This document shows, piece by piece, positions 6,501 to 58,934 of a stretch of DNA of 64,000 nt. How positions within the stretch are numbered: the stretch's first letter is position 1; each line of letters starts with the position of its first letter. The notes under the pieces are model-generated. The model saw only the letters and a program-made list of their open reading frames with translations. It did not search any database and was not told the origin of the DNA. A program made the position numbers and the translations under genes. Origin of the DNA: Anolis carolinensis (taxonomy: Eukaryota); assembly GCF_035594765.1 (NCBI RefSeq), contig NC_085842.1, positions 23,040,782-23,104,781 of the forward strand, given 5' to 3'.

Positions 6501-6628
6501 CAGGCATCCTCAAGGCCAAGCTCTTTGGGCCTCCAACTCCCAGAATTCTTGACCACTGAACAAGTTGGCTAGGGCTTCTGGAAGCTGGCGGCCCAAACAA
6601 CTGAGGGGGCACAGTTTGAGGATGTCTG
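6501..6628. mobile_element. Short hAT-type MITE
   Basis: Terminal inverted repeats CAGGCATCCTCAA / TTGAGGATGTCTG and an internal hairpin. Confidence 0.6.
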
Positions 6629-7145
6629 TCAGGAAGCTGCAGCCATTTCTTGGAAGAGTACTCAAATTGTTTGTGGTCAACAATAGCAATAGTCCAAACA
6701 GAGTTCAAGGCACAAAGGATTGTCCAAATGTTCGTTTTGAAAGTTAATAACATAAAGTCCAAGTTCCAAAGTACAAGGGTTACTGGCTGAAACATTCCAT
6801 ACACGAAGATTGCTTCCAGCCATGAGCTGTTGCAAATGCCAAGCTTTTATGCTACCTTTGCAAAAGTCCTACAACTGGGCAGTTTTCTTCTGGGCCAACC
6901 TCTTTGACCTGTGCAGCTGAATTGAGTCCACTCTGGGTTGTAACCAGGCAGGGAGTGTTAAATCCTGCTCTTCCTGCTGAAGAACCTCATTTTGCTCACA
7001 CTCCGCTGATTCTGAAGGGTCTGGCTCCTGCTCAGCCATAGCTCTCTCAGAAATATCAGGCTGCTCATTCACCATGGGCTCAGACTCTGCTGTTGGGAAG
7101 CAACCATCCTCCACATCATCCTTGTCTTGCCCCATGGTCCTGACA
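6627..7145 (-). mobile_element. Solo-LTR-like element A (519 bp) with an acidic ORF ending HRSKRLA
   Basis: Perfect 8-bp terminal inverted repeat TGTCAGGA...TCCTGACA; ORF 7144-6869; no TSD visible. Confidence 0.65.
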
Positions 7146-7440
7146 CCATCTTAGGATCACCATAAGAGAGAAATGACTTGAAGAGATACAACAACAGCAA
7201 TATACAGTAACTGTAATCAGACTGCTTGGCTTTTTTTTATACTAAATTTGTAGTGAGGAGACTTTTCTTTGACTTAAATGATCATGGAATCATAGAAATG
7301 GAAGAAACCCCAAGGGCTATCCAGTCTAACCCCATTCTGTCAGCCTGAAACACACCGTCAGAGCACTCCCAACAGATAGCCATCCAGCCTCTGATTGAAA
7401 AATCTCCAGAGAAGCAGACTCTATCACATTTCCAGGTAGT

Positions 7441-7660
7441 TACCCACATCCTTGGGCAAGAACGCAAGGATACCACAGCTGTTGCAGACGACTGCATGAA
7501 CTCTCTCATGATCCATTTTAGAAGTCTTCAATAGGGAAAGGAACAGAACTACGGGCCTGACTCTCAAACTCTAACCCTTCCAAAAAAATTTTTATTTGCC
7601 TCACTTGTTGGCTAAGCAATCATGCAACAAGCTATAAGAACTGGTGCTGTCCCTATAAAG
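7441..7660 (-). mobile_element. CR1 5' UTR and ORF1 start fragment
   Basis: Minus-strand MDHERVHAVVCNSCGILAFLPKDVGNY resembles the CxxC zinc-finger start of CR1 ORF1. Confidence 0.5.
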
Positions 7661-10600
7661 AGCAGTGGTTCCCAACCAAGAAAACAAAATAAAAATTGAA
7701 TGAAATAACAAAAAGGAGAATAAAAATAAGAAAACTAGAAATTACATTATGAATGAAAATTTCCCAAGTAGAATTTCACGCCTCCTGTAGCAAAGGATGC
7801 TTGCTCATTCTGCTGCCACTAACTCCAAAATGATTGTAACATCAGACAGACAGACGTCTAGGCTCTTCTTGCACACAAATAAATGTATTCTCAAAAGGGC
7901 TCCGCGAATCAAGGGGTTGGGAACGCGGCAGCTACCCCCCCCCAAACCAAAAGACTTAGTGGGAGTTAGCTCTTTCCCCAACTAAGCCTTTGACCTACTT
8001 CTTTTGACCTACTTCCTCCATGCAGATGCCCCTCCCTCCTGCGATAAGTTGCTGAGGCTGATGACCGAAAGCTATTCGCACCAGAACAATAAAACCTTAA
8101 GGAGTAAGCAAGCAAGCCTCTTCTCAACTCACACACACTAAGGGCCTGCTTTCAATATACAATACAGCCTTAACACAACCAAATTCTCCACATTACAAAG
8201 AAAAGCATCCATCCTTGTATATAGCAAAAGATGTGTGTGTGAAAGTTGACTGAGGAAGAATCAGATGCTTCTAAAAGAAGCTTTCGAATTAGCTAAGTGG
8301 TTTGAACAGGGAAAAGGAACAAGAATTTTTTTTAAAGGAAACCATTGAAAATTGGCGTATTTTTATTTGGGTTGCCAAATGGACAAAAAACAGAGATAGC
8401 CCTAGTTAGAACTTGGATGGGAGGCTGTCAAGCAATTCCCAGGTGCTGTAGTCTCTATTTCAAAGGCCACCATTAACTGACTTAAGCTTGAAGGCAACCC
8501 TTTCAATGTGTTTATTCAATCAGCTTCCCCTCTCTCTTACACTCACACATATATACATATAGATCATTCAGTCATTTTTGTTCCCCATGGGACAAAGGTT
8601 TCTAAGCAAAACTTTATCCCTCAGTCCAATTGCTAGACCCAAGCAGGATTGACTCAGGATACATCTACATAGACACTATATTGCAGCTAAGCCAGCTCAA
8701 GGTTGGGTTAACCACAAAATGTACACACACCCCCACCCCAAAATGCATTAAGCCAGAAACAGCAGGTTGGAAAAAAACCTCACCAGAAAGTCTGGGATAA
8801 GCCACAAAATCCGCTGCAGCTGATCGGATTATATCCCATGCAAAGATAAAAAAAACGCAGCGCTGTTGTCAGGGCTGACGCACTTTAAAAACCCCAAACA
8901 ATCTGGTCAGAAGATAAACAATTACCCCTCCCCCCCACCCAGAGGGGAAAACCACATCAATCCCATGGGGACGCTTCCTTTTTGGTCCTTTGTTCTCATG
9001 TCCTATACCCTGAAACGGTCTACAGCTGATCCTACAGCTGATCCGCAGTTGGTGGATATTGTGGCCACCATCTCAGCCTCAAATAGCTTCTTGGGATGTT
9101 TGTGTGGGTGCCACACAGCCAAACCAGGTCATTTAAATCAGCAGCTCGCAACATATGGTCCAGGAAGGATTAAATTATGAACTATTATTATAGTGTTCAT
9201 AATATTACATGCAGTCCCCAAATTACAAACAAGATGTCTGTGCTCCTCTTCAGAAGATTTCACTGCACTTTCCGTCCCTGTGAAAACTGGATTTTGAAAA
9301 ATGTGGTTTGTTGTGGGAACAAGGACTCGTAATAAAACTTGGGTGGAGACACCTTTTCTCCATTATAACTCTTCCAGGAGTGATTTTCCCTTCCTAGGGG
9401 TAGATTTCCTCTCATTTCCTGTTGTCTCGCCACCATTCTTAACTATGAATCATATGTAAGTCAGATGTTTATTTGGGTATTGCCTATATTTTACATTTTG
9501 ATGGAATATGTTTAATCAAAATATTATAATAGGAGTGTGTACTAACTTCTATCCCATTCTCTCTAAATTTGAAGGACTTCCATGAGAAAATTGAAATAAT
9601 TATTTGATGTAATCTAGTGCTTAAAATCTTGAGATAAGTCTTGGAGGTTTGCAGCCAAAAGAGGTATTTAAAAGAAGGTTCATGGTGAAGTAAAAGTTGG
9701 GAACCACTGATTTAAATCAATCTACAGCTGCATTATAGTGTCAGTGCAGAAGCAGCCTCACTGAAAAAATACAAACCCGATAATTCCGAGATGAATGCCT
9801 TCATAGCCTAAAGGCACCAGATCCCTTCTGATTTGGAGGCCAAGCCCTGGCTAGTACTTGTATGTGAAATTGCAAACAAATCCCAGGCCTGCCTGTAGTT
9901 TGTATTTCAGAGATAGGAACTGGCAGACCTACAACTAAATATTCATTGCCTAAGGCTGCATCTACACTGTAGGATGAATGCAGTCTGACACCATTTTAAC
10001 TGCCAGATCTCAAGGCAATGGAATCCTGAGATGTGCAGTTTGTTGAGGCACCAGCAGACAAAGTGTAAAACCTTGAATCTGTAGCATTGAGACACAACAG
10101 TTAAAGAAATGCCAGACTGCATTAATTCTGCAGTGTGTTTGTACCTTCAGTCCAACACTCAAACCATTGCACTACTCTGGTCCTTTCCCTTAGTCCCCTA
10201 CTACACTGTCATATAAAATTCAGATTATCTGCTTTGAACCGGATTATATGGCAGTGTAGAAAGGCCTTAAGTCAATCCAGAGCTGCAAAAATATTTACAC
10301 TCATGAATATCTGAAGCTACTTTTCTTATGCAAGAAAACACCTGAATGAAAAAGAAAATTCACTAGAATCATTATTAAAGTTTAGAAAAAATGTTTTCAT
10401 AACAATTACTAGTAATCTGAGATTGAAGATAATTATTTGTTTAGTATTTATTTATATTTATCATTATTTATATCTTGTTTTCTCTTAAAAGAGACTCAAA
10501 TGGCTAACAATGTTAAAATGTACAATTTAAAACCCAAAAACATATAAAAAGTGAGAACATTACTTTCGTTTTTGCAGAAGGCATTGAAACAGAATGAAAA

Positions 10601-11139
10601 TCACACACTTTATTGATTTAACAATCTCCAAAAGGCAGAATTTGGACACACAATTATTACTTTGAAAATACCTTGGCAAAATGCAAATCTTTAAAATACT
10701 TAACCTATTTGGTGTGGAAATGGCCACCTAACCCCCAATGAGATAAAGGGGGAAAATACTGATGGGATATGGAGTCCAATTCCCCTTGGAAACAAAGGGA
10801 GTACAACTGTATGACTAACGCAGTTTGATACCACTTTAATTCCCATAGCTCATTGCTATGGAATCTTTGGAGTTGCTGTTTTACAAGGTCTTTATTCAAA
10901 ATAACTCTAAGTTCCCCCTCCAACTCTCCCATGAGAAAAGCCATTCCCTCAGGAAACTCATCAATCTGCCAAAGCAAAGATAAGCATTACTAACGAATGA
11001 GATATCTCAGTACAAAGCTCAACTTGAGCGACTGATATCAGTGGGTGGAAAGCATAACAACACCCATCACACACACACAGCAAATTACCAAACCAAGACA
11101 AAATAGTAATAGTGTGCATACAATAAAGTAATCCTGTAT

Positions 11140-11690
11140 CCCACATTGTGCAAATGCCCCTTCACTGTATCCCAAAGCATTTACTTTATTCCCAGCTCAA
11201 GAATGGAAAAACGGAATGTCGGTGGACAACAAAAGATTTAAAGATGGCCTTAAAGCTAATCTTAAGAAATGTGGAATAAACTCAGACACTGCAGGCCCTT
11301 CTACACAGTCATCTAATCCAGAATATCAAGGCAGAAAATTCCACAATACCTGCTTTGAATATATCCCCACTGCCATATATTCCAGTTCAAAGCAGATAAT
11401 GTGGGATTTTATTCAGCTGTGTGCAAGGGGCCAGGAAGCCCTGGCCCTGAGCATTGGAACTGGAGGTCAGCTGTTATCAACAGTGATGTGGACTTCAAAG
11501 AAGCACAAATAGAGGGTGAAAGGGAGGAAACATGCCAAGAGGAAGGCGTGTCAGGCAAACCCTTGTCATGACTGCAACCTTCCACAATGTCCTCCTTGTG
11601 AAAGAATTCTGCGGATCCAGAATAGATCTCCAGTCATTTACAGACCCACCGCCAAGACTCTACTTTTGGAAGATTCATACCCATTGCCTA
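11140..11690 (+). mobile_element. Old RTE-clade LINE 3' fragment with a nested MITE, followed by a minus-strand CR1 3' fragment (~11740-12240)
   Basis: Similar to 33000-33450 (KRFKDGLKANLKKCGI); CR1 3' motifs on the minus strand. Confidence 0.6.
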
Positions 11691-12387
11691 GGATGAGTGT
11701 ATCCCAAAGAAACATGGCAGGCTTTAAGCTTAACATCCTAGAATCATAGAGAGACTGACCACAAAGGGCATTCAATCTAACCATGCAGGAACAGTCAAAA
11801 GCACTCCTGACAGAAGGTCATCCAGGCTCTGTTTTAAAAACCTCTAGAGAAGGAGATTCCACCAGACTCCCAGGCAACATCACATTCCCATGCTCAACAG
11901 CTCTTACTGTCAGGATGTTTTTAGTAATGTTTGGGAGGAATCTATTTTCCTACAATCTGAATCCATTGTTCCATGTCCTAGTCCCAGAGCAACAGAAAAC
12001 AAGCTTGCCCCCTCATCAATATGAGATTCTTTCAAATATTGAAACATGGCTATCTTGTCCCCACTCTGCCGCCTTTTCTCCAAGCTCAACAGACCCAAAC
12101 CCTAAAGAAACCATCACTTCAGACCTTTCGCTGTTTTGATTGCCCTTGTCTAGACCGTTTCCAACTTTTTCATATCTTTGCTGAAATTTATGGGCCATAA
12201 CTGGATGCAACATTATTCGAGGTTTAGTCTGACCAAAACAGAGCAATTTGAAGGCCCACTCATGTTTTGATGTAGGCAACTGCCTTCTTAAAGGCACCAG
12301 ATATAGACTGATATTGGATGCTAAGTAGGGTCTGCTCTGGTTGGTCCTTGGGTGGGAGATCTACATGAAATACTTAAAAATTCATAT

Positions 12388-14015
12388 GGGCAGTCCCTCA
12401 GTTACAAACATCCAATTTACAAATGATTCATAGTTAAGAACGGGGGCGAGACAACAAGAAGTGGAAGAAACCTATTCCTCAGAAGGGAAAGTCACTCCTG
12501 GAATGGGGAAAAGTTGCTGCCAATGCAGCTTTATCACCAATTACCTTTTTGAAAACATTTTAAACTTTTATCTTGTTTTGTTTAGATTCCTGCTTGTTTC
12601 CTTAAGTCTTAGTTGTGAAACTGTACATTTATTATATTTACCATTTAATTTTTGATAATGTGATATTATTTTTGATGTGGATTTGTTTTTGGAACATGGG
12701 GGTTATTTTTGTTTTTGTTCATCTTCTTACGGCATTGAATGTTTGCCGATATCTATTGTAAACCACCCTGAGTCCCCTCGGGGAGATAGGATGGGGTATA
12801 AATAATTATTATTATCATCCTTGTTTCCACAACAAGCCAATTTTTTCAAAATCCAAATATTGCAGGGATAGAAGCAAGATATAATCTTCTAAACAGGGGC
12901 ACAGACAGCAACCTTCCGTTTCTTACCCAAAGCTTATATACCCAAAGCTTGTTTATGTATATTATGTGTGTGTGTGTGTGTATGGCTGGAGTTACTCCTA
13001 AAAATGTACTTGTTCCGACTTACAAATTCAGCTCTTCTTGAACACCTCCAGAGAAGGAGACTCTACCAATGTAAAGGTAAAGGCTTTCCCCTGCCATTAA
13101 GTTTTGTTGTGTCAGACTCTGGGAACTTATACAAAAATACAATATTTGGTTGGAGTTAATAATATTGCAGTATAGTGGTATAGTGCAATATAGTAAAATA
13201 TAATACTAATACTTTGCTATACTAATATAATGTAAAAATAATATTGATAATATTATATTATATTACAATAGATAAAGGTAAAGGGATTGGTGCTCATCTC
13301 CATTTCTAAGCCAAAGATCCAGCATTGTTCGTAGACACCTCCAAGGTCATGTGGCCGGCATGACTGAATGGAACGCTATTACCTTCCTGCTGGAGCGGTA
13401 CCTATTGATCTACTAACATTTCCATGTTTTTGAACTGCTAGGTTGGTAGAAGCTGGGGATAACAGTCGGAGCTCACCCCTCTACCCAGATACAAACTGCT
13501 GACCTTTCAGTTCAAGTTCAGCAGCTCAGCTGTTTAATCTGCTGCGCCACCACGGGCTTAAATATATTACAATATAATACTAATAATAATACAATATATA
13601 ATACTGGGACATGAGAGAAACCTCCCACAGGATGGTAAAAACCATCAAAACACCCAGGCGTCCCCTGGCCAGCGTCCTTGCAGACAGCCAATTCTCTCAC
13701 ACCAGAAGCGACTTGGAGTTTCTCAAGTCGCTCGTGACACAAAATAATAACATTAATAATATTGTAATATAGTAATAATAAAATATTAAATATAGTTACT
13801 ACTGATAATATATATTACTATATGATATACTGTATTATTATTACTATTATTATTATATTTGTATACTTTAAGTTGTACTGTTTTTGATTGTGATCCGCTT
13901 TGAGTCTTTGTACGGAGAGATAAAGGATATAAATAAATAAATATACTTTTAAAAGTACCTGTTCTGACTTACATACAAATTCAATTGAAGAACAAACCTA
14001 CAGCTCCTATCTTGT
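12388..14015. mobile_element. Nested cluster: pogo/Tigger-like MITE containing an L2 tail, a split Sauria SINE (13070-13555, minus), AT-rich simple repeats and a Vingi-like 3' piece
   Basis: gcagtccc..agttacaaac terminus (also at ~9210-9487), Sauria SINE core on the minus strand, (taa/ata)n tracts. Confidence 0.5.
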
Positions 14016-14415
14016 ATTGTCGAAGGCTTTTGTGGATGGAATCACTGGGTTGCTGTGAGTTTTCTGGGCTGTATGCTCAGGTTTCAGAAGCATTCCACAG
14101 ATATATATAACCCACTTGCCTAGTTTCCAACAGACCTCACAACTTCTGAAGATGCCTGCCACAGATGTGGGCGAAACGTCAGGAGAGAATGCTTTTGTTA
14201 CATGCATGGACAAACTTGGGTCCTCCAGGTGTTTTGGACTTCAACTCCCACAATTCCTAACAGCCTCAGGCCCTTTCCTTTCCCCCCTCAGCCACTTAAG
14301 CCTGAGACTGTTAGGAATTGTGGGAGCTGAAGTCCAAAACACCTGGAGGGCCCAAGTTTGCCCATGCCTGTTCTGGAACGTGTCCACACAGCCCAGAAGA
14401 CTCACAGCAACCCAG
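14016..14415 (+). mobile_element. Penelope-like element pLTR with inverted piece, hammerhead motif and nested hairpin MITE (14201-14370)
   Basis: ctt CTGAAGA tgcctgccacagatgtgggc GAAA cgTC aggag; inverted gggttgctgtgag / ctcacagcaaccc segments. Confidence 0.75.
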
Positions 14416-14754
14416 ATCTTATCTTGCCCAGAATTTGGTGACTGACTGTATCTATAAATATGGAAATATGGACTTTTCCCAGCCCAAATGTTTTTCCAGT
14501 CTGATCTTGGAAGCTAACCAGGGCCAGCCCTGGTTGATACTTGGATGGAGAACCATACAAAATATCAGGTGCTGTATTTCTGAGGAAAGAGCTGGCATAG
14601 CCACCTCTGAGCATTCTTAGCCCAAGAAAACCCCATGAAATTCGTGGGCTCGCCCTAAACCGATGCGAAGGCGCGTCCCCATTTCCCAATTGGCGCTCAC
14701 TGATTCGAATTAAAAGACATAAATACCTCTTTTGCTGCAATTCTATCAATCCAA

Positions 14755-15240: not shown

Positions 15241-15287
15241 GGCTTCCCAGTAGAGCCTCCAACACTATGGAGGAAATGGGTTGAACA

Positions 15288-15692: not shown

Positions 15693-15823
15693 GTTGAACA
15701 TCTCTTTATCTGAATTGCTTGGGGTCAGGAGGGAGTTTCCCCCACAGATTTTGAAGTATTTACGTATACATTGTAAGATATCCTGGAGATTTGATCCTAG
15801 TCTAAACACGGCATGTATATATA

Positions 15824-18563: not shown

Positions 18564-18612
18564 AAGGCCATTAACTCTGTCTGTTTTCTGCAGTGGTGCA
18601 GCATCAGCAGCT

Positions 18613-25315: not shown

Positions 25316-25375
<60 letters not shown>

Positions 25376-43900: not shown

Positions 43901-44280
43901 TCTTGCAAAACATTGCACAGTCGAACTGCCAGCTCCAATATGTTACCATTCTGTTTCTATATCTCAGAATGTGGTCAAGTCTCCTTCTCTGGAGGTTTTT
44001 AAATAAAAGCTGGATGGCTGACTGGTGGGAGTGCTTTGATTGTACATTCTAGCATTGCATCTGGTTGGACTGAAGAGATCCAGATTCCTATTATATTGGT
44101 AGTTGCATTTGATCAGTGTTTTGATGGCTCAGCCAAAAAAGCTGCTTGCAAAATAGTGCCAGTGGTTACATAGATCTACCCATCTCCTCAGTTTGTGGAG
44201 GGAGAGCTGCTTCACCCTCCTGAGTTTGCTTCGTTGATTTCATTAGTGTTGTAGTTGGGCCAAGGGGCAGTAATGGTTCT

Positions 44281-44817
44281 ATGGGTGAAACAGCTAGAAG
44301 GAGAAAAAGGGCTAATAGAGAGCAGGTACTTGATGAAGAACAACAAGTAAAGCGGTTCCAGGAAATGCTTATGGCTCCTTCAGAGAATGAGACGTTTTAT
44401 GGGTTTTCTAGTGATGAGGAGTCCATGCTAGATGATGATTTTGCAGAGAGTAGAGGAACTAAAAGGTCTACTCGAGAGCAGGAGTCAGATGAGGAAAGAG
44501 AAAGGAAAAAGATCTGGGATATACTCACTGCTCCCACGAATGAGGAGACTTTTGAGGGATTCTCCGGGAATGATGGGTCTGGGAGTGAGATGGAGAATGC
44601 TGACTGGACTCAAGTTAATGTGGATGATGAGCCAGCCCATGGGGCTGCATCAGGGGATTGGCAAGCCTCTCATACTTCTGGGACATGGGGAGATCTAAGT
44701 CTTGAACAGAGATGGAGGGGCTGGAGGGATGGGAGGCAAGGTCCACTAACAAGATCAAGATCAGCTGTGATTGATGAGGAAAGGGCGGAGGTCTCATCAG
44801 CATCGGACTCCGACTAG
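44281..44817 (+). CDS. LTR-encoded acidic 178-aa ORF with two tandem FxGF (IBM/TIM-like) repeats
   Basis: Open from 44248. Repeats KRANREQVLDEEQQVKRFQEMLMAPSENETFYGFS and KRSTREQESDEERERKKIWDILTAPTNEETFEGFS are conserved at the protein level while the DNA has diverged. Confidence 0.6.
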   Translation: MGETARRRKRANREQVLDEEQQVKRFQEMLMAPSENETFYGFSSDEESMLDDDFAESRGTKRSTREQESDEERERKKIWDILTAPTNEETFEGFSGNDGSGSEMENADWTQVNVDDEPAHGAASGDWQASHTSGTWGDLSLEQRWRGWRDGRQGPLTRSRSAVIDEERAEVSSASDSD

Positions 44818-45022
44818 TAAGTTAAAAGTAGAGTTTGGAAAACTATTGCCTTGCAGAAGGCAAGGTATCGTTTTGGGGACATTGCTTTGTTGCTGCCTGT
44901 TCTCCTTGGGTCCTGGCTGTGCAGCTTCCTGATAATCCGGTTTGAGTCCTGCTTCAGTGTTCCTGGCTTCTGACTCCAGCTCTTGACAACAACGTTCCAG
45001 TTCGACGTTTCCAGTTCAGCGT

Positions 45023-45885
45023 TGTCACGCTCAAGGCAGCGGAGCACCAAGAACCATACACGGAGGCCAATAAACTATCTAATATCTTTATTAAGGAAAT
45101 ATATAAGAATAATAAAAACAAGTAGAAAATATAGTCCAGAGTCAGACCTATCAAAGGAGGTCAAATGTAGTCCAGAAATAGTTTGTCCAATAAATGATAT
45201 TAGAGTCCAAAGATAAAATCCAATAAACCGAAACACACACTATTGCCAAGCAATAGTGTGGGGAATTGTCCAGAGTCTTTCAAGGTCCAAGGTAAATTCA
45301 CAAGAAGGCAGGAATCAAAGCTTGAAACTGAGAACAAGGTCCGTGGCTAGGAACGAGGCAAGGCAAATCTTGAATACTTGAATAAACAAGGCAAGGAAAC
45401 TGGATTGCGGACTTAGCGAAGTCCACACAAGGCTGGAAACACGAACTCACTCCTGAAGCTGCTCTGTTGTCTCCGCACGGAGCCAACCGTGTCAGGCACC
45501 TTTAACTGGGTCTCGTTTTCCCGCCAAACAGGTGTCCAGCGTTCTCTTTCCCTAGAGAACAGGGAACGAACCCCAACTTTCCAGATGTGAGACTCCCTGG
45601 ATTTCCCAGGGGAAACATGGCTAATCAGCGTCTTGTTTGCCTGCAATTCTGACACTCCTGCGAATTCGCTCTTTCACTCCCCTGTCAGCAGCAAAGGATT
45701 GTCTCCTAGCGAAGGGAGGTGAGAGCTGTTCAAGGTCGGTTTTAATTGGTTCTTGGGCAAGAACATCAACATCAGGCATCTGGAAGGATTCCGGCTGTTG
45801 TTGATCCGGAGAAAACCCCATGTTTTCATCCTCATCTGCCACAGTGACACTAGGAGCGGGACTACAAGGCCCATGAGGCATCACA
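45023..45885 (-). mobile_element. Solo LTR C (863 bp, Gypsy-like) nested inside element B
   Basis: TGTGATGCC...GCGTGACA on the minus strand, TSD AGCGT (45018-45022 / 45886-45890), AATAAA near the 3' end; ORF 45884-45621 ending RRSVRIAGKQDAD. Confidence 0.9.
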
Positions 45886-48189
45886 AGCGTTTGCCTTGGC
45901 GTTTCTGATCCATTGTTTCCAGTTCGGTGTTTGCTTTGGCATTTCTGCTCTAGCATTTCCACTTCGGCGTTTGCCTTGGCGTTTCTGCTTCAGCGCTTCC
46001 AGATTGGCGTTTGCCTTGGCATTTCTGCTCCAGCGTTTCCAGTTCGGCATTAGCTTTGGCGTCCCTGCTTTGGTGTCCCTGCTTTGGCGTCCCTGCTTTG
46101 GCGCTCTTACTTTGGCTTTCCTGGCTTCTGAACCCGGTCTGGCTCCTGACCTTCGTCTGTGCTTGCTCCTGGCTTGGCGTCTCCGTTTTTCTCCCTTTGG
46201 TCTTTGGAACTCGGCCTGGCTTCGACTACGATTCTGCTTGCTGCCTTTCGGAGCATTTTGCTCTTTTCCAGCCCTTTGCACCACAGCATTGAGTGGCGTC
46301 GGTTCTGGTAATGTTTCTGTTACATTTGCTGTGGATTATCAAGCCAGATAATCCGGATTATTCTTTTGTTCTTGCTTTTGACTCCTTTTGAACTAAGACG
46401 TTTACTTTTGAAGAGAAACACTGCATTTAAGTGTTTCTGAGTTTAAAATATCTTTTAATAAATATTTAAGAACTTTCCTTTATGTGTGTGGCTTTTTAAG
46501 AGGCGGCTGTGTCACGACAATTAGTAATTGGATACCCTGTTTTTTCAGATATATGAGAGTGGTCTCCATGCAAATGCCTCTGCTGAGTTCTTTCTTTCCT
46601 TCATTTACAGGATATCAGAAGCTTCTTACAGGGGTAAGTTAATTTCATCTCCTCCTCCCACTAAAACTCAAATTTCCACATGAAGTACATGACCCTCAAA
46701 AGCAAAAGCGTGCTGCAGGAGTCTGTGTTTGGCTGGGGTTCACAGGAAGAATTGGACTTGATGATCAATGAGACCCCTTCAGCTCTATGATTCTGTGGAG
46801 CATTTACACTCTAGAATTAATGCCATTTGACAACAACTTTGATTTGTTACCCACCTCTCTTCATGATTCGAGGCAGTACACAATCCAGCCAAAGCACACC
46901 ACCATGAATAAATGCCATAAAATGTGTATATTAAAACACACCATCACAAAACAATATATATTGAAATACACAATGCAAGGATTAAAATGCAGTAGCAATG
47001 GAATATAAATTGAAAGTCCATTCATTCTACAATGAAGATGCATCATCTGATATTTTTATTTCTCCTCCAGGCATAAGAATAAGGAGAAATCCAAGACTTC
47101 TGCAGCCTTTCCTCCTGCCCTGAAGTGGAAGATCTGGGACGTCTGTGATATCAATCCATTTTTGGAGGCCGTCATGAAGCAATTTAGAGGTAAGGGAGAT
47201 TGTCTGCAAGGAATTTCAGTGAGACTTGACCTTGGTCTGGAAAGGGTAACATTCCATGGCATTTCAAAAATTAGGGCCACAGAACAGCAAATTGGAGTGC
47301 TAATGTTTCCTTTCAAATGTGAAACAAAATTGTATCAATTTGCTCAATTGTTTTTTTTTCTTTTCCATTTTATTTCTAGTGAGGAATAACATTTCAGAGT
47401 GAAGCAAAATAAAATGAAAATGTCGAGGGCCCTGATCAGCCTTACTCTGGTCCATGTAACCTGCAAATGTGGAGGACTAGTGGTAGTCTGAACAAACTGT
47501 GTGGCTTGAGTTCTAATATACACATTTTATCCTATTTATTCATGGTGGTGTGCTTTGGCTGGATTGTGTCCTGCTTCGAGCCATGAGGCCAAGAGTTGGG
47601 CCTAGATTTTGATTCAAAGGTGATTATGATCATTGCACAGCCAGCCCTCCACATTCGCAGGGGTTAAGAATGTGGGATCTCAGGGGAAAAAGGGAGCGGG
47701 AATGTGGAGGACTCAGAGATTCCTAGAGAGAACATGTTAATCAATGAGACATAACTCTCTGCTGGTGGCCACACAACGTCTCTTGGGTACAGGATCTCAG
47801 CTTCCCTGTGTTGTTTTCTCCTCATTTTCTGAGAGTCACCATGTTGTGCTAAGACTCACTCTCACCTTTCTCTCTCCAGCCTCTCTGGAATCTGGACTTC
47901 AGCAGCAAAAAGGTAAATAAATGAACACAGACAACAGTAAAAAAGCATTTTATTTCTATTGACTGTGAATGAGTTGATTGGAAACTAGAATGCCTTAATA
48001 CGATAATATCAAATCAGACATCCAGATCTTTTTCCCCAAACGAATGAGAACTATGTTATGCAACACAGGTTAAGAGAAAATAGCTTTAAACTGGAAGTTC
48101 TTCTTTGAGATTGTATGAAGTCTGATTTCTGGCTTCTCGGAGTTGTGATTAAATAGGTAGATTTTTAAAGCTCTGATCATTGGCATGTA

Positions 48190-50704: not shown

Positions 50705-51057
50705 TGTGATGTCTCAGGGACCTTTGGCCCATGACCCCGCAGCCATCATAGATCAAACTGAAGAGGATTTGGGCTTTTTCCCATCTCAGCAAGATTCTGT
50801 GCCATTCCAGATGTCCCCTGTTGACATTTTCGTGCCAGAGCCAATTAGGGACGCCCTTGAAACAGAGCCTGGTTCCCTGGAAAGTTTGGTGTTTGATAGG
50901 AAGGCTTTTCTCAAAACACATCGCTCCCATAAGTAGTTTCTAAGGCGAAGCGCGAGATTAGCGGAGAGAGACGATTGTGACTAAACCGTTTCCCTTGGGA
51001 AGTTTCGGGGAGGCAGGCATCTGATACGATGTTGAAACAGCTTCGTTCTCTGGGAAG
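50705..51057 (+). mobile_element. Truncated LTR D, related to C and E
   Basis: Starts TGTGATGTCTCAGGG; ORF 50706-50984 with one internal TAG, ending FLRRSARLAERDDCD; cut off by a Penelope-like insertion. Confidence 0.7.
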
Positions 51058-51770
51058 ATAAATATCAGGATTCACAGCAAAAAGAACTTACATGTCCTTG
51101 AAGGATCCTCTGCAGGGAGGCTTTTTGGATCCACAAATTGAAGACCTTAACCCCACAAGGCCTAAACGATAGGCTAGATCTCACCTGCTTCTTATAATGG
51201 GATAAAAAAATACTTAAGTCTTTACAGAACTACTGCTGAATGCTCGCAACCTGAGGTAGAACACTACATGTAAGGATCCTCCAAGGACATGTAAGTTCTT
51301 TTTGCTGTGAATCCTGATATTTATATACTATATTAGATATTATTGGGGTGTATTATACATGTCTATTTTTAGTATGGTTTGTATTATTTCTAGTATGGTT
51401 TGTATTATTTTGAATCAATTTACATTTAATTCTATGAAAAGAAATAAGACAGCAGAGCAGCAAACAGAGGGAACTCCAGGATTACCTGAAGAAGGTCTAC
51501 CTGAAGAAGGTCACCGAAACTGGATGCATACCCGGGAGACCAGTCGTTACTATTGACATGGAACTTTGTTGCTATTGATATGGAACTTTGATTTACTATT
51601 GACATGGAACTTTGATTTACTTTGAATGATCGAATTTGAAGAAGAGTACTACAAACCTTGAGAACACTATCAAGATTGTATTTGTTAAAATTGGACATTG
51701 AAATATGTACTTATCTGTACAGTTGGAATATATAAATTGATATTACAGTCATAATATATGTGATTATATC
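51058..51770 (+). mobile_element. Penelope-like element (Neptune-type GIY-YIG end) with 5' inversion and hammerhead-like motif
   Basis: REAFWIHKLKTLTPQGLNDRLDLTCFL* at ~51114-51197; 52-bp inverted repeat 51058-51109 / 51273-51324; CTGAAGA..GAAA ctgg..ccag TC at 51501-51545. Confidence 0.7.
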
Positions 51771-53173
51771 ACTTGAGAAAATATAGAACTATAACTTACT
51801 TTAAAGTACAATATATACCATTCTTTTCCTTTTTTCCTTTTTACATGTGGATCAGCAGCCAAATACAGATTGAGCATCCCAGATCTGAAATTCCACAATC
51901 TGAAATAATAGAAAGTTGTCCATATGGGCAGCTGAGAGAGTGACACCTTTGCTTTGCAATGGAACAGATGGTTTTCTAAATGCTAATCACACACACACAC
52001 CCAGTGCTAGGAATCATGGGCATGGAAAGGCACACATTGAGTATCTCTTATCAGGAAATACGAAATACTCAAAAATTCAAAACTCAAAATTGTCCACAAG
52101 GGTGACTAAGATAGCGACATCTTTGCTTTTGTAGGGTTCAATGTACACCAACTTTGTTTCAGGAACATTATTTAATATACTACATATAAAATATCTTCAG
52201 GCTATGCGTATAAGGTGTATATGGAACATAAATGAATTATGTGTTTAGACTTGGGTCCCATCTCCAAAGTATCTCATAACGTATTTTAACTGCTATGGAT
52301 CAATGCTATGGGATCATGGGAGCTGTAGTTTAGCTTCTATAAAAGAGTGTTGGTAGCACACCAAACTACAAATTCCAGAACTCTGTAGCATTGAACTGTG
52401 GCAATTAAAGTGTGTCAAACTGCACTAATTCTACAGTGTAGATGCAGCCTTGCTGAGTGCCAATTTTGGCTTCTTTTCAATGCTTCAAAAAACATGGCTT
52501 TACATTCAATCTTTATTCCACATGTGCAGTTTGAAAGTACAAGCCCCCATCTACACTAACCATTTAATACAGTTCAAAGCTAGTTTCAATCTGTGACAGC
52601 TAGAAAACAAACACCTATGGAAAAAAGCCGGAAATGTGCAGCAAACCCACTTTATTCAATACTGCTTTGAAACTGCATTAAATGGTCGGTGTAGATGGGA
52701 CCTTTGATTCCTGTTTTCATGAAGAATACATTCCTCGATGGAGAACGAGTACAAAAAATCATGGATAATTCAGGAAACGATTAAAAGAAACAATTTCCGG
52801 TCCCAGCATACCACGGATATCGTTCCTGCAGTGAGGCGGGTTTGACTGTTTTTGAGACTTTAAAATCTGCTTCAACCTGGCATGAAATAGTTAAAAACCT
52901 TTAAAATGTGTTGAAATGAATATGGCTTTTCTTTGTTCAGTTATGTTTGTTGAGAATGTATAGGTTGCAACCAGCCTTTTGAATGTATTGTATCTGGAAA
53001 TGCACCAGTAGCCAAAGAAGTAAGGGGGTTACATGTTTAGAGAACTTGAGTAGTGCCCAGAAAGACAGAGAAAGGGGAAGGGTCTCATGTACACGTTCCC
53101 AAAGGCTGAGGCATCTGGAGAGCTCAGAGGTTGCAGCGCCAGAGGTTGGGCAGAGGCGGAGTCACCAGCTGCT

Positions 53174-53205
53174 TTCCTGGAAGAGAAAGGCTGAGAAACG
53201 AAAGT
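53174..53205 (+). promoter_or_regulatory. GAS plus ISRE upstream of TRIM copy 4
   Basis: TTCCTGGAA (53174-53182) and GAAACGAAAGT (53195-53205), 50 nt before the ATG. Confidence 0.6.
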
Positions 53206-55439
53206 AAGGCTGTTAACTTTGTCTGGTCTTTGGGGTGGAGAAGCATTGGCAGCCATGGCCTCTGGAGACCCTGTGAAGAAGCTCTGCGAAGAACTGGCCT
53301 GTCCCATCTGCTTGGAGTATTTCAAGGAGCCTGTGATCCTCTCCTGTGGGCACAATTTCTGCCAATCCTGCCTGGATCAATACTGGGAGGAGAAAGAAGC
53401 CTCCTGCCCACAATGCAGGGAGAAAGTGCAGGGAGGGGACATCAGGCCAAACAGGCAGCTGGCCAATGTTGTGGAGCTAGTCAAGGAATTGGGGAGCCAG
53501 AAGGCGGAAGAGAAGGGGAGAGTCTGCCAGAGGCACCAGGAGCCCCTGAAGCTCTTCTGCAAGGACCACGAAGCCCCCATCTGTCTGGTGTGCGACAGAT
53601 CGAAGGAGCATGAAAACCACAAAGTGATCCCTCTGGATGAAGCATCAAAGGAGTACAAGGTAGGAGGAGGTAAAATCAGGACCCCTAACAAGGTGTTGTG
53701 GTGCATCCCCACCCCACAATACAGGTCTGTGGTTGGTGGTTCCATATTTCTCCAATCCATAGCATTTAGCCCTGGCAGTTAAAGTGTGTTAACTCTACAG
53801 ACATGGTCCGATTGAAGGCTGAAGCATGAGGTTTTTAGACAAATGGATCTAATTTACATATGTTTTAATTGTTATAATGTATTTTAATGATGTATTTTAA
53901 TAGTTTTAATTGATTATACGTACTGTTTTTGTTTTATTATTATGTTCTTGGCATTAAATATTGCCAACTGTTGTAAGCCAACCTGAGTCGTCCCCCCCCC
54001 CCCCCCCCCGGTGAGAAGGGCGGGTATAAATGCTGGAAATAAATGGCCCATGAGGTCTCTTCCAACTCTACTATTCTATGATTCTATGAAATAAATAAAT
54101 ACAGTGTAGCTGCACCATGAGACTTGAGCAGCAGACAAAATAAGGTCCCTGACCATTAGCAAGAACTTCCTGATGTCAATAACTGTTTCATGATTGAATG
54201 TGCTGAATCTAAGCATATTGGAGTCTCCTTATATTTTAGAAAATTTTAGGTTAAATTAAACTGACATGGGAAGCAGGAATAAGAACGCTTTGGTGTAGAA
54301 TATATTGGATTTTATTGCACAAACCTACTAGTCCACTGCACTTCGGTTCTCACTGACAGCAGAGCCATACGGAATTGAGGACGTTAATATCACACTTTTC
54401 TTCCTTGGCTTAGTTCTGCCAATTCAGCAATTCATCAGTGCAGTTTTGCATACCCTGGAAACCCATACTTCAGCCGATCCTTATTATTTCAGTGCAATTT
54501 GAGGAATTGATTTGTGTTTTAGAGCAGTTTTATTTCATGTTTTAAACTTTGAAAAATAACACAGGAAAATATAACTGTGAAATATTGCATTAGCAAGGGA
54601 GAGTGGAAGGAGTGAAGGGGAAGAGAATCCCAGCTCCTGATGTGATTTTGCTCCCATCTTGCTGGCTCAGAAGGGGACCCATTGCATCAAGGGAAGTGAC
54701 AGGACCGTTGTGGGATTGTGAACTGTAGGTTGGTTTTCACTGACAATAACATGGGATGGGATAATCATGGAGAGGAGGCAAGACGGCAGCAGGATGAACA
54801 TGGCATCATGCAATAGCGATGCAGTAGTTTGCCTGTCTCCTGTGATAGCATCCATCATGTACATCTCCAAAATAAAATTGATTAGTACAGGAATAAAACC
54901 TGGGATTTTCAGGTACTGTACCTTTTATGTCTAGAGAAGTTTTTTTGAGTAAAGAAAATTGTGGAAGCAGTATTAGCAAAAGAACAGAGGTCTGCCAGTA
55001 GAGGTCAACATTGTCCAAAGCTCCCATAAAATTCAATAAATGTGGTATGGTTGACGGCATGATCTTGGAAACCATTCTAAACCTTGAAGAAAAGCAGTGA
55101 CCAAGAACTTTATTTTCATCTTTAGGATCAGATTTGGAATTTTCTGGAGACTCTGAAGAAGGAAAGAGACATTCTGGCCCACAAAGCAGACGCAGCACGG
55201 GAAAGCCAGGATTTGCTCGTAAGTGGCATTGCTACTGAAAAACGAGAATGTATTATAGCCTTGAATGTGAGTCTGAATAAACTGAATTCATTTTGTCAAA
55301 ACTATCCCACATTATAAGAGACCTGATAGCCTACAGAAAATATTGCCCTAAACCTATTCAAGTGGCTAGCCCTTGTAGGTCTTCATAAAGCACTTTCACC
55401 ACTAGATATTGACATTTTCTTTCTGAAGAGATGTAAACC

Positions 55440-56299
55440 TGTGATGACTCATGGGCCTTGTAGTCCTGTTCCTAGTACTATTGCGACAGACGAAGAGGAA
55501 AACATGGGATTTTTGCCGGTTCAGCCAGAGCCGGAGCCTCCTCAGTCTCCTCACCTGCAGGATGTTGATGTTTGTCCTCAAGAATCCAGCCAAACAAGCC
55601 TTGGGCAGAATTCTCCCCCGTTTTCCCGAAAGGACAATTATAATAGAGATAGAGGGGCGAGGGAGGCTAATCGCCGGTCTCTCAGAATCGCAGCCAGACA
55701 ATTAGCTGATTAAGCCTGTTTCCCTTGGGAAATTCTAAGGAGTCATGCATCTGGACACAGTTTGGGTTTCACTTCTTGTTCTCCAGGGAAAGTGTTCCTT
55801 GGCGGGAAAACAAGATCCTATATAGGTGTTTTGCCGCAAGGGGAACCTTGCGGAGTCAATTCGTCAGCTCGAGGAGTGAGATCGTGTGTGACTCCAGTTC
55901 CTTGTTTCCCGGATCAAGTTCAAGCCTGCCTTGTTTCGCGTTTGCCACGGACCTTGTTCTTGCTTCTTGTTTTGCCTCGTATCAAGTCTTGTTTGCCAAG
56001 AATCCAGTTTGTTCTCTAGCCTTGTTGTCAAGCTTCAATGGACTAAAAGACCTTGTCATCTCCCCACACTATTGCTTGGCAAAGTGTGTGTTTCGGTTAA
56101 TGGATTATAACTTTGGACTCTAATATCTCATATTGGACATTATTTTCCTGGACTATATTTGACCTTTCCTGAAAGGTCTACTTCTGAAGTTTATTCTTCA
56201 CTTGTTTTTATTGACTTTATATATTCCTAAAATAAAGATATTAGATAGAATCTGGCCTCTGCGCATGGTTATTGGTGTTCTGTAGCCTGGGTCCTGACA
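55440..56299 (+). mobile_element. Solo LTR E (860 bp, Gypsy-like) in intron 2 of copy 4
   Basis: TGTGATGAC...CCTGACA, TSD AAACC (55435-55439 / 56300-56304), TATATA at ~55819, AATAAA at 56232; ORF 55441-55713 ending RRSLRIAARQLAD. Confidence 0.92.
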
Positions 56300-56759
56300 A
56301 AACCCCACTCCAAAAGAATGCGGAGAATTCATTCCAAAAACCCTCTCTCTGCCTCTCTCTCCTGTTTCTCTTTTCCAATATTCTAGGAGAAAACCCAAAG
56401 GGAGAAGAAAAAGGCTGTGGCTGCATTCAGACACATGCATCAGTTTCTAGAAGAACAAGAGAGGAATCTGCTGGCAAAAATGGAAGAGGTGGAGAAGGAG
56501 ATTTCAGTCAAAGGGGAGGAACATCTGGCCAGACTCTCTGAAGAACTCTCCTCTCTCTCGAAACTCATCCAAGAGATGGAGGAGAAGCATCAGCAGCCGG
56601 CAAGTGAACTCCTCCAGGTAAGGCCCATCTTGTTCCCATGGGTGGCTGAGACAGTGACACTTCAGTTTTCTCATGGTTCTATGTACACAAACGGTTGTAT
56701 GACATTAATTTTATGCTGTGTTTAGAAGGCAAATAAGAAACAAATGAATTTGAGACTTA

Positions 56760-57880
56760 CTTGGGGTCCATCTCTAAAAGATCAGATATTTATTTCATTA
56801 TTTACTGTCTTGATTCTAATGTTTTTTTTAATACTGGTAACCAGATTTTGTTTATTTTCATGGTTTCCTCCTTTCTGTTGAAATTGTCCACATCCTTGTG
56901 GATTTCAGTGGCCTCTCTGTCTGACATTATAGATGTTGGAGTGGTCCAGCATTTCTGTGTTCTCAAATGATGTGTGCCGTCCGCCAGACAATAAAAAAAA
57001 CTATAAAGCTGAAACGTGCCGTCCTTTATCCGGGCGAACTGCAAATCCCTATAAGCTGTCCTAAAAATATTGAACGACTGAGTCTGGAAAACTTCAAAAA
57101 AAAAGGATGTTTATTCATACAAAGTTGTAAACTTGCCACAGATCTTAAAGTTACAGAAAATGAAACACATTTCTATAGGTTTTAGTTACAGAATTATCCC
57201 TGGTTCCAGAAGGCAAAGGTGATTATAAAACCACTACACCCTAATCACGCTGTCTATAATAGAAGGAGAAACTCTTTCCTTCCCTATCTTTACAGCAAAG
57301 ATTAGTTCTAGAAGCGACGGAATAACCTTGCTCCTCTAATTAGATTTTCTATTCCAGATCAGTATAATTCAATACTTATCTAATTTGGATAGGCTTAGAT
57401 TGGCCTGGTTTTGAGGATGATTTGTCCCAGTTAGCTTTGCACAGCTGCAGCACATTGGAAGACTATAGCCAAAATGAGGCTCCAAAATGGAGACTAGACC
57501 CTGGTTAAAAAAGGGCGGTCCTAAGATGTTGTACTCTTTGACCAATCATTGCAAAGAAGACTGCAGCCAGCTCTTGCAGACTCCAAGCCACCTTTCCTGG
57601 GCTTTTGCAGCCAGAGGCTGAAACAAAATGTAAAGGAGGGAAAACAAACAAACGACCAATAGGTAAGGCAAACCATCGTCCTGGGGGACGGAACAGATGT
57701 GCTGTGTCCAGGTTGGTTCATCAAGTGCTCTGCTATGGCTGACTTCTCTGGTTGAGTTAGTCTGCAGTGCCTTTCATGTCTGGATAGGGACCATCGAATG
57801 CAGCAATGTCCAGACACGAATCAAACAACATGAAAGGTACTGCAGACTAATTCAACCAGAGAAGTCAGTTATAGCAGATT
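56760..57880 (-). mobile_element. Penelope GIY-YIG fragment with an inverted piece, interrupted by an LTR
   Basis: HERHCRLTQPEKSAIAEHLMNQPGHS ... REATEIHKDVDNFNRKEETMKINKIWLPVL on minus; inverted copy at ~57800-57880. Confidence 0.8.
56973..57695 (-). mobile_element. Solo LTR with a 4-bp TSD (ERV-like), 723 bp
   Basis: TIR TGT(G/T)CCGTCC, TSD GATG (56969-56972 / 57696-57699), minus-strand AATAAA at ~57110. Confidence 0.75.
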
Positions 57881-58194
57881 CCTAATATATTGGGGCTTGC
57901 ATTTGACCAGTGTTTTGATGGCTCGGCAAAAAGCTGCTTGCAAAATAGTGCCAGTGGTTACATAGATCTACTTGTCTCCTCCTTAGTTTGTGGAGGGAGG
58001 GCTGCTTTGCCTGCCTGGGTTTGTCAGTGATTTGTTTTAGTTGGATGCCCTGTTTTTTTCAGCTGTATGAGAATGATCTCTGCTGAGTTCTTTCTTCCTT
58101 TCCTTCATTTACAGGATACCAGAAGCTTCTTACAGGGGTAAGTTAATTTCCTCTCCTCCTCCCACTAAAGCTCAGATTTGCACATGAAATACAT

Positions 58195-58934
58195 TCTCAC
58201 ACTCCAAGTCAGGAACCCTTTGACTGTAAACAGCACACCAGGTTGGTAAAACCAGCAAGCAGGTTATTGTAGAATATATAAAGGCAAAGCAATAGAAAAT
58301 AGTAGAAAAGAATCAATCCAAAAGTATCCAAGATTAACTATAGAGTTTCAACAGAAAATCAAATCCACAGTTTCATAACAACTCCATGAAGCAGGGCACA
58401 AGAAACCAGGAATCAATACAGCAAAGTCCCATAGGCAAACTTGAACTTGATAATATTTTGATATATGAAGCACTTGAAAGCTAGACCGACATGGTTCAGA
58501 GACGTTGACTCAACTGAAAACCGAAAGTACCATAAACCCTTTCCAAAATCCATGACTGAGAGAAAAAAAACAATTCTTTTTTCCTTTCCCACTACATAAT
58601 TGGCTGTTATCTCTCTTCTGTTGTAAACGAGCGAAGCGTCTGAGATGCTGAATGTTTTGCCTGTACTTATTAAAACTCTGCCTTCTAGCAAAGGTTTCAG
58701 TATCATTGCCACCTGGGAAAACAATCTCAGAAGCGCTTTCAGGCTGTTATTCTCAGGTCTGTTATTATTCTGTTATTCTCAGGTCTCTCATTTGAACTTA
58801 GCTCCAGCCCGAGCCCATCAAAAGGAACATCATCAATCTGAACATCCTGAACATCATTCCCACCATGAACATCGGACACAGGCTGAACAGGAACATTAGG
58901 CACAATCACAGGCTGAGCAGGCTGACATACAACA
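58195..58934 (-). mobile_element. Solo LTR F (740 bp) in intron 4 of copy 4
   Basis: TSD TACAT (58190-58194 / 58935-58939); starts TGTTGTATG on minus; acidic ORF, frameshifted at a small tandem duplication near 58745-58790, continues ETFARRQSFNKYRQNIQHLRRFARLQQK. Confidence 0.8.

What the first reader, a model, noticed from the sequence alone, without database searches (positions are those of the whole stretch)
6627..58934. Five diverged LTRs encode ~90-110-aa acidic micro-proteins ending in an HMGN-like RRSxRLA motif
Seen: LTRs A (7145-6627), C (45885-45023), D (50705-), E (55440-56299) and F (58934-58195) each encode an acidic/Pro-rich peptide with a basic C-terminal motif: HRSKRLA, RRSVRIA, RRSARLA, RRSLRIA and RRFARLQ. 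The Ser is coded TCA, AGT, AGC and TCT in different elements, across both serine codon families, which argues for selection on protein. C and F also share FARRQSF, and C, D and E share an acidic-xGF stretch (DEDENMGF, EEDLGF, EEENMGF). Established: RRSARLSA is the core of the HMGN nucleosome-binding domain, and arginine-anchor motifs in viral proteins (KSHV LANA, foamy virus Gag) bind the H2A-H2B acidic patch. Inference: a family of LTR-borne chromatin-tethering tails. With the FxGF element, this would be a modular system in which U3 carries exchangeable targeting motifs.
Basis: partly seen in the sequence, partly recalled or inferred. Interest (0 to 1): 0.85.

Follow-up and report, generated by a model that had tools for sequence, protein, structure and literature searches.

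The report
LTR-encoded integrase tails with swappable tethers
These short reading frames are not stand-alone micro-proteins: in this lizard genome they are the tail ends of Gypsy retrotransposon integrases, read on into the LTR (seen for three of the five families, inferred for the other two), and their conserved end motif likely grips nucleosomes, while a sister lineage carries instead a motif predicted to bind LEDGF, the tether HIV uses.

Summary
The motifs are at the stated places, but window copies D and F are broken and F has no start codon. In full-length relatives of E and C the pol frame (protease-RT-RNase H-integrase-chromodomain) runs through the polypurine tract into the 3' LTR and ends at RRSxR[LI]A. 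A decayed junction shows the same for A. D and F had no parent among 40 and 33 copies. Changes shared among copies show purifying selection in that frame (dN/dS 0.15-0.25). Changes private to inserted copies are neutral (0.9-1.0). So the tail matters to the replicating element, not as a host micro-protein. The motif carries the residues by which HMGN2, Dsup and yeast Dot5 bind the H2A-H2B acidic patch; binding here is untested. Neighbouring LTR B and a related group (1,459 PPT-LTR pattern matches; 30 of 30 inspected belong to it) lack the chromodomain. They end in helix-acidic-FxGF motifs spaced like the JPO2 motif that binds LEDGF (dN/dS 0.09). Fish relatives carry a third, short tail. Reading pol into the 3' LTR is known from plant CRM elements. 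These two motifs on a retrotransposon integrase were not found in ten literature searches.

The parts
6627..7145 (-). LTR A, old family; 91-codon tail frame 7144-6872, HRSKRLA at 6913-6893
   Evidence: one decayed chromodomain-PPT-LTR junction of this family in L246
44247..46400 (+). LTR B (about 1.3-1.5 kb; right end approximate), split by the insertion of LTR C; tail frame 44248-44817
   Evidence: parent junction L107/L138: integrase SH3 region, no chromodomain, PPT, in frame into this tail
44350..44406 (+). B motif 1: predicted helix, 8-residue acidic linker, FYGF (TIM-like)
   Evidence: definition from PMC9987994 passages
44506..44562 (+). B motif 2: predicted helix, 8-residue acidic linker, FEGF (TIM-like)
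45023..45885 (-). Solo LTR C with 5-bp TSD; 87-codon tail frame 45884-45624; DEDENMGF 45836-45813, FARRQSF 45713-45693, RRSVRIA 45662-45642
   Evidence: pol read-through in full-length copies L017, L019
50705..51059 (+). 5' part of LTR D; frame broken by a stop at 50934-50936; RRSARLA 50943-50963
   Evidence: 40 other copies sampled, none with pol in its flanks
55440..56299 (+). Solo LTR E with 5-bp TSD; 90-codon tail frame 55441-55710; EEENMGF 55492-55512, RRSLRIA 55672-55692; TATA-like box near 55819, AATAAA near 56231
   Evidence: pol read-through in full-length copies L011-L016
58195..58934 (-). Solo LTR F with 5-bp TSD, old family; frame broken, no early Met; FARRQSF 58692-58672, RRFARLQ 58641-58621
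   Evidence: 33 other copies sampled, none with pol

Best explanation
The peptides are the last 90 or so residues of the Pol/integrase protein of chromodomain-bearing Gypsy retrotransposons, read through the polypurine tract into the 3' LTR (seen for families A, C and E, inferred for D and F), and their RRSxR[LI]A end likely anchors the integration complex on the nucleosome acidic patch. Shown: the pol frame crosses the PPT and ends at this motif; the tail is under purifying selection in replicating lineages and neutral in inserted copies; related elements carry other tails. Established for LTR elements: reverse transcription copies 3' U3 to both ends, so every LTR and solo LTR carries the frame as a passenger upstream of its own promoter. 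Inferred: the tail stays on mature integrase behind the chromodomain and, through an arginine anchor of the HMGN/Dsup/Dot5 type, gives general nucleosome or mitotic-chromosome tethering, as p12 and Gag do for MLV and foamy virus. Inferred: in the chromodomain-less sister lineage (LTR B and relatives) a helix-acidic-FxGF motif would instead bind the LEDGF/HRP2 integrase-binding domain and steer insertion to transcribed chromatin.
For: Read-through: in 6 of 6 full-length E copies the chromodomain frame enters the LTR and 5 of 6 reach the motif; in C, 2 of 4 cross the junction and 1 of 4 reaches it. One decayed A junction among 27 copies. Pfam order PR-RT-RNase H-integrase-SH3-chromo. Public Anolis carolinensis Gypsy proteins already end in the tail (P0001, P0002, P0020-P0023). 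All six window LTRs use the same register at the LTR start, as do fish relatives at the protein level. Selection: variants shared by 3 or more copies give dN/dS 0.15 (E, p=2e-4), 0.17 (C, p=5e-5), 0.25 (C+E, p=3e-6); private variants 0.90, 0.98, 1.03; stable to thresholds, kappa and CpG masking; lowest in the last 30 codons, 0.16. Shared indels are multiples of three in 12 of 15 cases in tails against 11 of 57 downstream (p=2e-5). The motif's Arg and Ser switch codon families across families, Ser even within E (TCT 20, AGY 16 of 36). Cryo-EM shows RRSSR/RRSAR on the acidic patch (PMC12487698, passages). Yeast Dot5 RRSARIAT needs R6, R7 and R10 to bind nucleosomes (PMC13347269, passages); P0001, P0002 and P0021 end in RRSARIAA. 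TIM side: dN/dS 0.09 over the motif (variants in 2 or more of 15 copies), 28 of 30 loci match D[IL][FL]x8FxGF, and the only PDB match to that tail among 177,635 sequences is the JPO2 motif in LEDGF complex 6EMO.
Against: No binding or localisation data exist. The motif is 5-7 residues and basic, so nuclear import or nucleic-acid binding could also explain its conservation. Window A has His at position 1 and window F has Phe at position 3. Selection tests on the old families were inconclusive (A 0.84, p=0.32; F 0.71, p=0.17) and D had too few shared variants. The motif-only test is weak (5 synonymous, 2 replacement changes, p=0.03). No parent was found for D (40 copies) or F (33 copies). The tail was seen only in Anolis proteins: 0 of 63 other named vertebrate hits had RRSxR[LI]A. 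The 6EMO match has E=1.6, and B's own motifs gave no LEDGF-complex hit. Whether the protease leaves the tail on integrase is unknown.
Confidence: 0.57

Rival explanations
1. The tail is the integrase C-terminus as shown, but its basic end is mainly a nuclear localisation signal (two basic clusters 13 residues apart, bipartite-like) or a non-specific nucleic-acid-binding tail.
For: Ty1 integrase ends in a bipartite NLS (PMC7459421, passages). An upstream R[RKH] pair is kept in C, D, E and related tails. Many fungal-like and fish Pols end in basic tails.
Against: The conserved cluster has no Lys, which classical importin-alpha signals need (recalled). Ser3 and the hydrophobic residue at position 6 are kept across codon families, as the acidic-patch motif requires and an NLS does not.
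Confidence: 0.22
2. The tail is made as part of Pol but cut off by the element's protease and works as a separate small chromatin tether or adaptor inside the particle, like MLV p12.
For: The tail is a low-complexity acidic/Pro-rich segment behind a variable linker, with no Pfam or atlas match and a much faster-evolving middle (28-53% identity against 88-96% for the chromodomain). p12 precedent (PMC5053271, PMC11054761, passages).
Against: No cleavage site was looked for or shown. Ty1 carries its targeting segment on the integrase C-terminus.
Confidence: 0.1
3. Solo LTRs express stand-alone micro-proteins that matter to the host.
For: ATG at codon 2 in C, D, E and codon 4 in A. 36 of 37 E and 25 of 26 C copies are open for 80 or more codons. 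Three Anolis gene models include such tails next to unrelated domains (P0004, P0019, P0025).
Against: The frame lies upstream of the TATA-like box, the ATG sits 5 bases into the LTR, and F has no early Met. Private variants are neutral: dN/dS 0.90, 0.98, 0.87, 0.99 for E, C, D, B. The open frames are explained by young age. Two of the five window copies are broken.
Confidence: 0.05
4. The apparent peptide conservation is a by-product of DNA or RNA constraints in U3.
For: U3 holds enhancer and att sequences; a palindrome right after the stop is kept in C, D and E. The N-terminal 24 codons show no significant signal (0.49, p=0.22).
Against: Of six frames only the pol frame and its antisense shadow show low dN/dS; codon-family switches at Arg and Ser; in-frame indels.
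Confidence: 0.03

Closest known systems
Vertebrate chromoviral Ty3/Gypsy elements (V-clade: Amn-ichi, Amn-san, sushi; PMC2774666 passages)
   Same: PR-RT-RNase H-integrase order, SH3 (GPY/F) module, chromodomain, PPT; fish relatives also read pol on past a GG[GD][STN]V junction (25 of 63 named hits).
   Different: The lizard tail is about 90-190 aa against about 20 aa in fish and ends in RRSxR[LI]A or carries FxGF motifs. Fish tails end in SP[EDA][FY] or a clipped form of it (17 of 63) and many have a GRP AT-hook-like segment (28 of 63). No named V-clade reference was in my tree; the Amn-ichi paper was not available.
Plant CRM group A centromeric retrotransposons (PMC3059260 passages)
   Same: [quoted passage not shown]
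   Different: Plant lineage; the CR motif replaces the chromodomain and its partner is unknown. Here the RRSxR tail is added behind an intact chromodomain, and replacement goes with an FxGF motif. Sequence similarity to the CR motif was not tested.
HMGN / tardigrade Dsup / yeast Dot5 nucleosome-binding motif (PMC12487698, PMC13347269)
   Same: R-R-S-x-R core with following L/I; RRSARIAA in P0001/P0002/P0021 differs from Dot5 RRSARIAT at one position.
   Different: Sits at the end of a retrotransposon polyprotein, not in a host chromatin protein; binding not shown; a profile of the block found no PDB match.
Foamy virus Gag chromatin-binding sequence and MLV p12 (PMC5072296, PMC11054761, PMC5053271 passages)
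   Same: Arginine-anchor tethering of a pre-integration complex to the H2A-H2B acidic patch.
   Different: Those tethers are Gag-derived in retroviruses; this one is Pol-derived and LTR-encoded in a retrotransposon without env.
TND-interacting motifs of JPO2, MLL1, IWS1 that bind LEDGF/HRP2 (PMC9987994; PDB 6EMO), and lentiviral integrase-LEDGF tethering (PMC5053271)
   Same: B-type tails have helix, acidic 8-residue linker and FxGF with the spacing of JPO2 motif 1.
   Different: HIV integrase binds LEDGF through its folded core, not a linear motif. The xGF of A, C, D, E lacks the first Phe and is not such a motif.
Ty1 integrase C-terminal targeting domain and bipartite NLS (PMC7459421)
   Same: A short C-terminal integrase segment recruits a host factor.
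   Different: Copia-type element, binds Pol III subunit AC40, Lys-based NLS.

Membership tests
Ty3/Gypsy chromovirus | pol order PR-RT-RNase H-integrase between two LTRs, with gag and no env | tested here: met
   E and C full-length copies of about 5.6-6.9 kb; not shown for D, F
Ty3/Gypsy chromovirus | chromodomain at integrase C-terminus | tested here: met
   PF00385 E=1e-9 in L011; remnant in A junction. Absent in the B-type lineage
Ty3/Gypsy chromovirus | TG...CA LTR ends, PPT, target-site duplication | tested here: met
   (30 of the 31 D copies whose end lay in the stretch have a 5-bp TSD with at most one mismatch)
V-clade (Amn/sushi) | groups with named V-clade elements in an RT or integrase tree | tested here: inconclusive
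   Integrase tree groups lizard, frog and fish rows (94/93, midpoint root) but held no named reference
HMGN-like acidic-patch motif | R-R-S-x-R with conserved Arg1, Arg2, Ser3, Arg5 | tested here: met
   C 26 of 26, E 31 of 37 in frame, D 10 of 21; window A (His1) and F (Phe3) deviate
HMGN-like acidic-patch motif | binds nucleosomes through the acidic patch | not testable with these tools
   needs EMSA or structure
HMGN protein family | stand-alone host gene with RRSARLSA domain | tested here: not met
   part of a retrotransposon Pol; no Pfam match for the tail
TND-interacting motif (B-type tail) | helix, 8-16-residue acidic linker, FxGF | tested here: met
   by sequence: 19 of 22 B copies have two, 28 of 30 related loci have one; the helix is inferred from the sequence pattern, not predicted by a tool
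TND-interacting motif (A, C, D, E acidic-xGF) | FxGF preceded by a helix | tested here: not met
   NMGF, DLGF, EEGF lack the first Phe and follow a Pro-rich stretch in C, D, E
TND-interacting motif (B-type tail) | binds LEDGF/HRP2 integrase-binding domain | not tested
   no LEDGF sequence was fetched; the one complex job went to the histone question
Stand-alone or domesticated micro-protein | own promoter upstream of the start codon | tested here: not met
   TATA-like boxes lie downstream of the frame in all six LTRs (pattern scan); start sites not mapped
Stand-alone or domesticated micro-protein | purifying selection on the inserted copies | tested here: not met
   private dN/dS 0.87-1.03 in E, C, D, B
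CRM group A | [quoted passage not shown] | tested here: met
CRM group A | CR motif and centromeric location in plants | not tested
   animal genome; CR motif not compared; centromeres not located

The most novel reading that the evidence does not exclude
One lineage of vertebrate Gypsy retrotransposons uses the U3 part of its LTR as an exchangeable cassette for integrase tethers copied from host chromatin motifs: chromodomain plus HMGN-type acidic-patch anchor in one branch, loss of the chromodomain plus a JPO2-like motif that recruits LEDGF/HRP2 in the sister branch (convergent with lentiviruses, and very abundant in this genome), and an AT-hook plus short tail in fish.
Probability: 0.33. Interest if true: 0.82.

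Novelty: new variant of a known kind. Interest (0 to 1): 0.62.

Why it matters
How vertebrate LTR retrotransposons reach chromatin and choose insertion sites is largely open; known tethers come from yeast elements, plant chromoviruses and retroviruses. Here two related lineages in one genome share the same PPT and pol architecture but differ in a short, selected tail whose predicted partners are well studied. That makes the question testable with peptides and with existing insertion maps: over a thousand junctions of the FxGF type against the chromodomain type. A linear LEDGF-binding motif on a retrotransposon integrase would be an independent arrival at the tether HIV uses. It also warns that ATG-led frames at the start of solo LTRs can be pol tails, not micro-proteins.

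Tried and rejected
Structure prediction of lizard H2A-H2B with the E tail end gave no verdict (score 0.02, controls not folded); it is not used either way. PPT-plus-LTR pattern searches found no parent for D, F or A; the pattern was meant to cover B and F but covered only F, and B's parent came. Sequencing runs: no RNA holder listed; contigs from four runs of guessed type cover the stretch but cannot show strand, start or level. ESM atlas: no usable hit for the E tail; no answer for the FxGF tail. PDB: no match for the RRSxR block profile; only chance-level unrelated matches or none for B's tail and motifs. Pfam: none for B or E tails. A search with the B tail for longer proteins found one chimeric-looking Anolis model. 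The first TSD count for D (0 of 40) used a wrong end point and was redone. The pol-like hit in L212 is the end of another LTR, not pol. One row (L114) was dropped from the tree as too short. For the FxGF group only 15 of the 30 loci entered the dN/dS test after identical LTR starts were merged; there private variants are also low (0.31), so that group has no neutral control. Four look-ups of earlier scan findings returned nothing. Rejected: independent convergence of five LTRs (they are homologous); a DNA-motif explanation; equating the xGF of C, D, E with FxGF.
Full report
Observation. Each element is a repeat with 40-45 listed matches in the own genome, a 1.85 Gb assembly whose closest named proteins are from Anolis carolinensis. 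Only A, C and E are intact frames (91, 87, 90 aa). Window D stops just before its motif and is cut short at 51059. Window F is frame-shifted, has Phe in place of Ser and no Met before codon 113. In all six LTRs of the window, B included, the frame has the same register, the T of the terminal TG being a third codon position followed by a Val codon, and TATA-like boxes lie downstream of it.

What the frames are. Pairs of E LTRs about 5.3 kb apart mark full-length elements. In all six fetched, the chromodomain frame crosses the polypurine tract into the 3' LTR, and five reach RRSxRIA and stop. Pfam gives protease, RT, RNase H, integrase, Tf2-type SH3 and chromodomain in that order. Of four C junctions, two are crossed in frame and one reaches the motif; the others are broken. 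Among 27 A copies one sits behind a decayed SH3-chromodomain-PPT remnant. No pol was found beside 40 D or 33 F copies; 30 of the 31 D copies whose end was in view are solo LTRs by their target-site duplication. D and F are assigned by homology: the D tail matches the E tail by tblastn at E about 1e-4 to 1e-5 in most copies, and D, F and A align with the C-terminal block, with Arg and Ser invariant in 7 of 7 rows. Six public Anolis Gypsy proteins already include the tail (P0001, P0002, P0020-P0023). The frames in solo LTRs are therefore passengers of the 3' end of pol.

Selection. I counted non-CpG single-base variants per codon column among natural copies, split into those shared by three or more copies (taken as arising in replicating lineages) and private ones (mostly after insertion). 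In the pol frame shared variants give dN/dS 0.15 for E (37 copies), 0.17 for C (26), 0.25 for both, and 0.30 for B (22, p=0.03); private variants give 0.90, 0.98, 1.03 and 0.99. Of the five other frames only the antisense frame that shares third positions shows a weaker echo. D had too few shared variants; A (0.84) and F (0.71) were not significant. The result holds for other thresholds, transition weights and without CpG masking; it is strongest in the last 30 codons (0.16, p=7e-5), absent in the first 24 (0.49, p=0.22) and weak for the seven motif codons alone (p=0.03). Shared indels are multiples of three in 12 of 15 cases within tails and 11 of 57 downstream. But it acts on the element, not on inserted copies.

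A second tail type. A PPT-LTR pattern gave 1,459 matches against 24 for the control. The first 30 all belong to a B-related group: open from integrase into the LTR in 30 of 30, no chromodomain, and D[IL][FL]x8FxGF in 28 of 30. This fits the definition of a TND-interacting motif, whose FxGF part is required by LEDGF and HRP2 (PMC9987994, passages). The only PDB sequence matching that tail is the JPO2 motif fused to the LEDGF domain in 6EMO, over exactly this stretch but at E=1.6; B's own motifs gave no such hit. The motif region has dN/dS 0.09 against 0.52 for the tail downstream of it (variants in two or more of 15 copies). An integrase tree places this group as sister to the chromodomain lizard elements with moderate support on a long branch, so loss of the chromodomain is inferred, not shown. 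The NMGF/DLGF/EEGF of C, E, D and A lack the first Phe and do not qualify.

Beyond anoles. One profile search returned 108 proteins from 8,000 scored candidates. None of 63 named non-anole vertebrate hits had RRSxR[LI]A or the FxGF motif near the C-terminus. But 25 read on past a GG[GD][STN]V junction and 17 end in SP[EDA][FY] or a clipped form. Read-through thus appears to be old in vertebrate chromoviruses while the tail content varies. Coverage of other squamates was thin, so restriction to anoles is not established.

Mechanism. Shown: structure, read-through, selection, two tail types. Inferred: function. HMGN2 and Dsup bind the acidic patch through RRSAR/RRSSR, with the fifth Arg as anchor and Ser hydrogen-bonding (PMC12487698, passages). 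Yeast Dot5 RRSARIAT needs its three Arg for nucleosome binding (PMC13347269, passages and Discussion). Foamy virus Gag and probably MLV p12 tether integration complexes the same way (PMC5072296, PMC11054761, PMC5053271, passages). I judge it most likely (0.57) that the tail anchors the integration complex on nucleosomes alongside the chromodomain. The read-through reading alone I put near 0.95. An NLS or nucleic-acid-binding role (Ty1 precedent, PMC7459421, passages) is the main rival; a protease-released tether and stand-alone micro-proteins are less likely.

Novelty. Extension of pol into the 3' LTR to encode a targeting domain is described for plant CRM group A (PMC3059260, passages), and a chromodomain Gypsy element of Anolis was described in 2008-9 (seen only as a reference in PMC2774666; text not held). 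Ten searches of the held library (listings, with passages read for the nine papers cited) found no report of an HMGN-like motif or a TND-interacting motif on a retrotransposon integrase. Subscription journals, Repbase and Dfam were not searchable and no supplements were read, so prior notice of the read-through there is possible. Verdict: a new variant of a known kind; interest 0.62.

Noticed in passing
G000 genome-wide; L108-L137, L139: A young chromodomain-less Gypsy group related to LTR B. The PPT-LTR pattern has 1,459 matches (reversed control 24); 30 of the first 30 belong to it, all open from integrase into the LTR, 28 with a TIM-like motif. Its integrase is sister to the chromodomain lizard clade on a long branch (93/90).
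   Followed up: yes
P0031-P0120 (fish Gypsy Pol proteins): Fish chromoviral Pols read about 20 residues past the PPT-like junction and often end in SP[EDA][FY] (17 of 63 named non-anole vertebrate hits, one of them a clipped form); 28 of 63 have a GRP AT-hook-like segment (name recalled). The conserved terminal motif is unexplained.
   Followed up: partly
one search list, family D: 18 of 40 best D matches lie on the small contigs C7 and up (15% of the assembly), against 2 of 44 for E, 2 of 40 for C and B, 0 of 45 for A, 1 of 43 for F. p is about 4e-5 when computed for 17. The lists are best-candidate subsets, so a tool bias is not excluded. It may reflect a different target preference.
   Followed up: partly
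window C nt 272, D nt 286, E nt 281 of the LTR: A TCCCnnGGGA palindrome is kept just after the tail's stop codon in C, D and E; it resembles the EBF/COE binding site (recalled).
   Followed up: no
window 18500-62420: Five tandem paralogous genes spaced 9-15 kb with RING/B-box, coiled-coil and PRY-SPRY-like exons, a TRIM cluster by my reading of the ORFs (not run against Pfam). LTRs B, C, E and F appear to lie in their introns.
   Followed up: no
window 62740-63960: GC-rich tandem array of 201-202 bp units, each with a long internal inverted repeat.
   Followed up: no
P0004, P0019, P0025: Three Anolis UniRef gene models join an LTR tail to a cation-transporting ATPase or a LINE-like RT; either exonisation or annotation error.
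   Followed up: no
window 44247-46400; L139; L121-L123: Nested and tandem arrangements: C inserted in B; an E-like LTR inside B copy L106; a chromodomain element joined to an FxGF-type element in L139; three FxGF-type junctions 5,205 bp apart.
   Followed up: no
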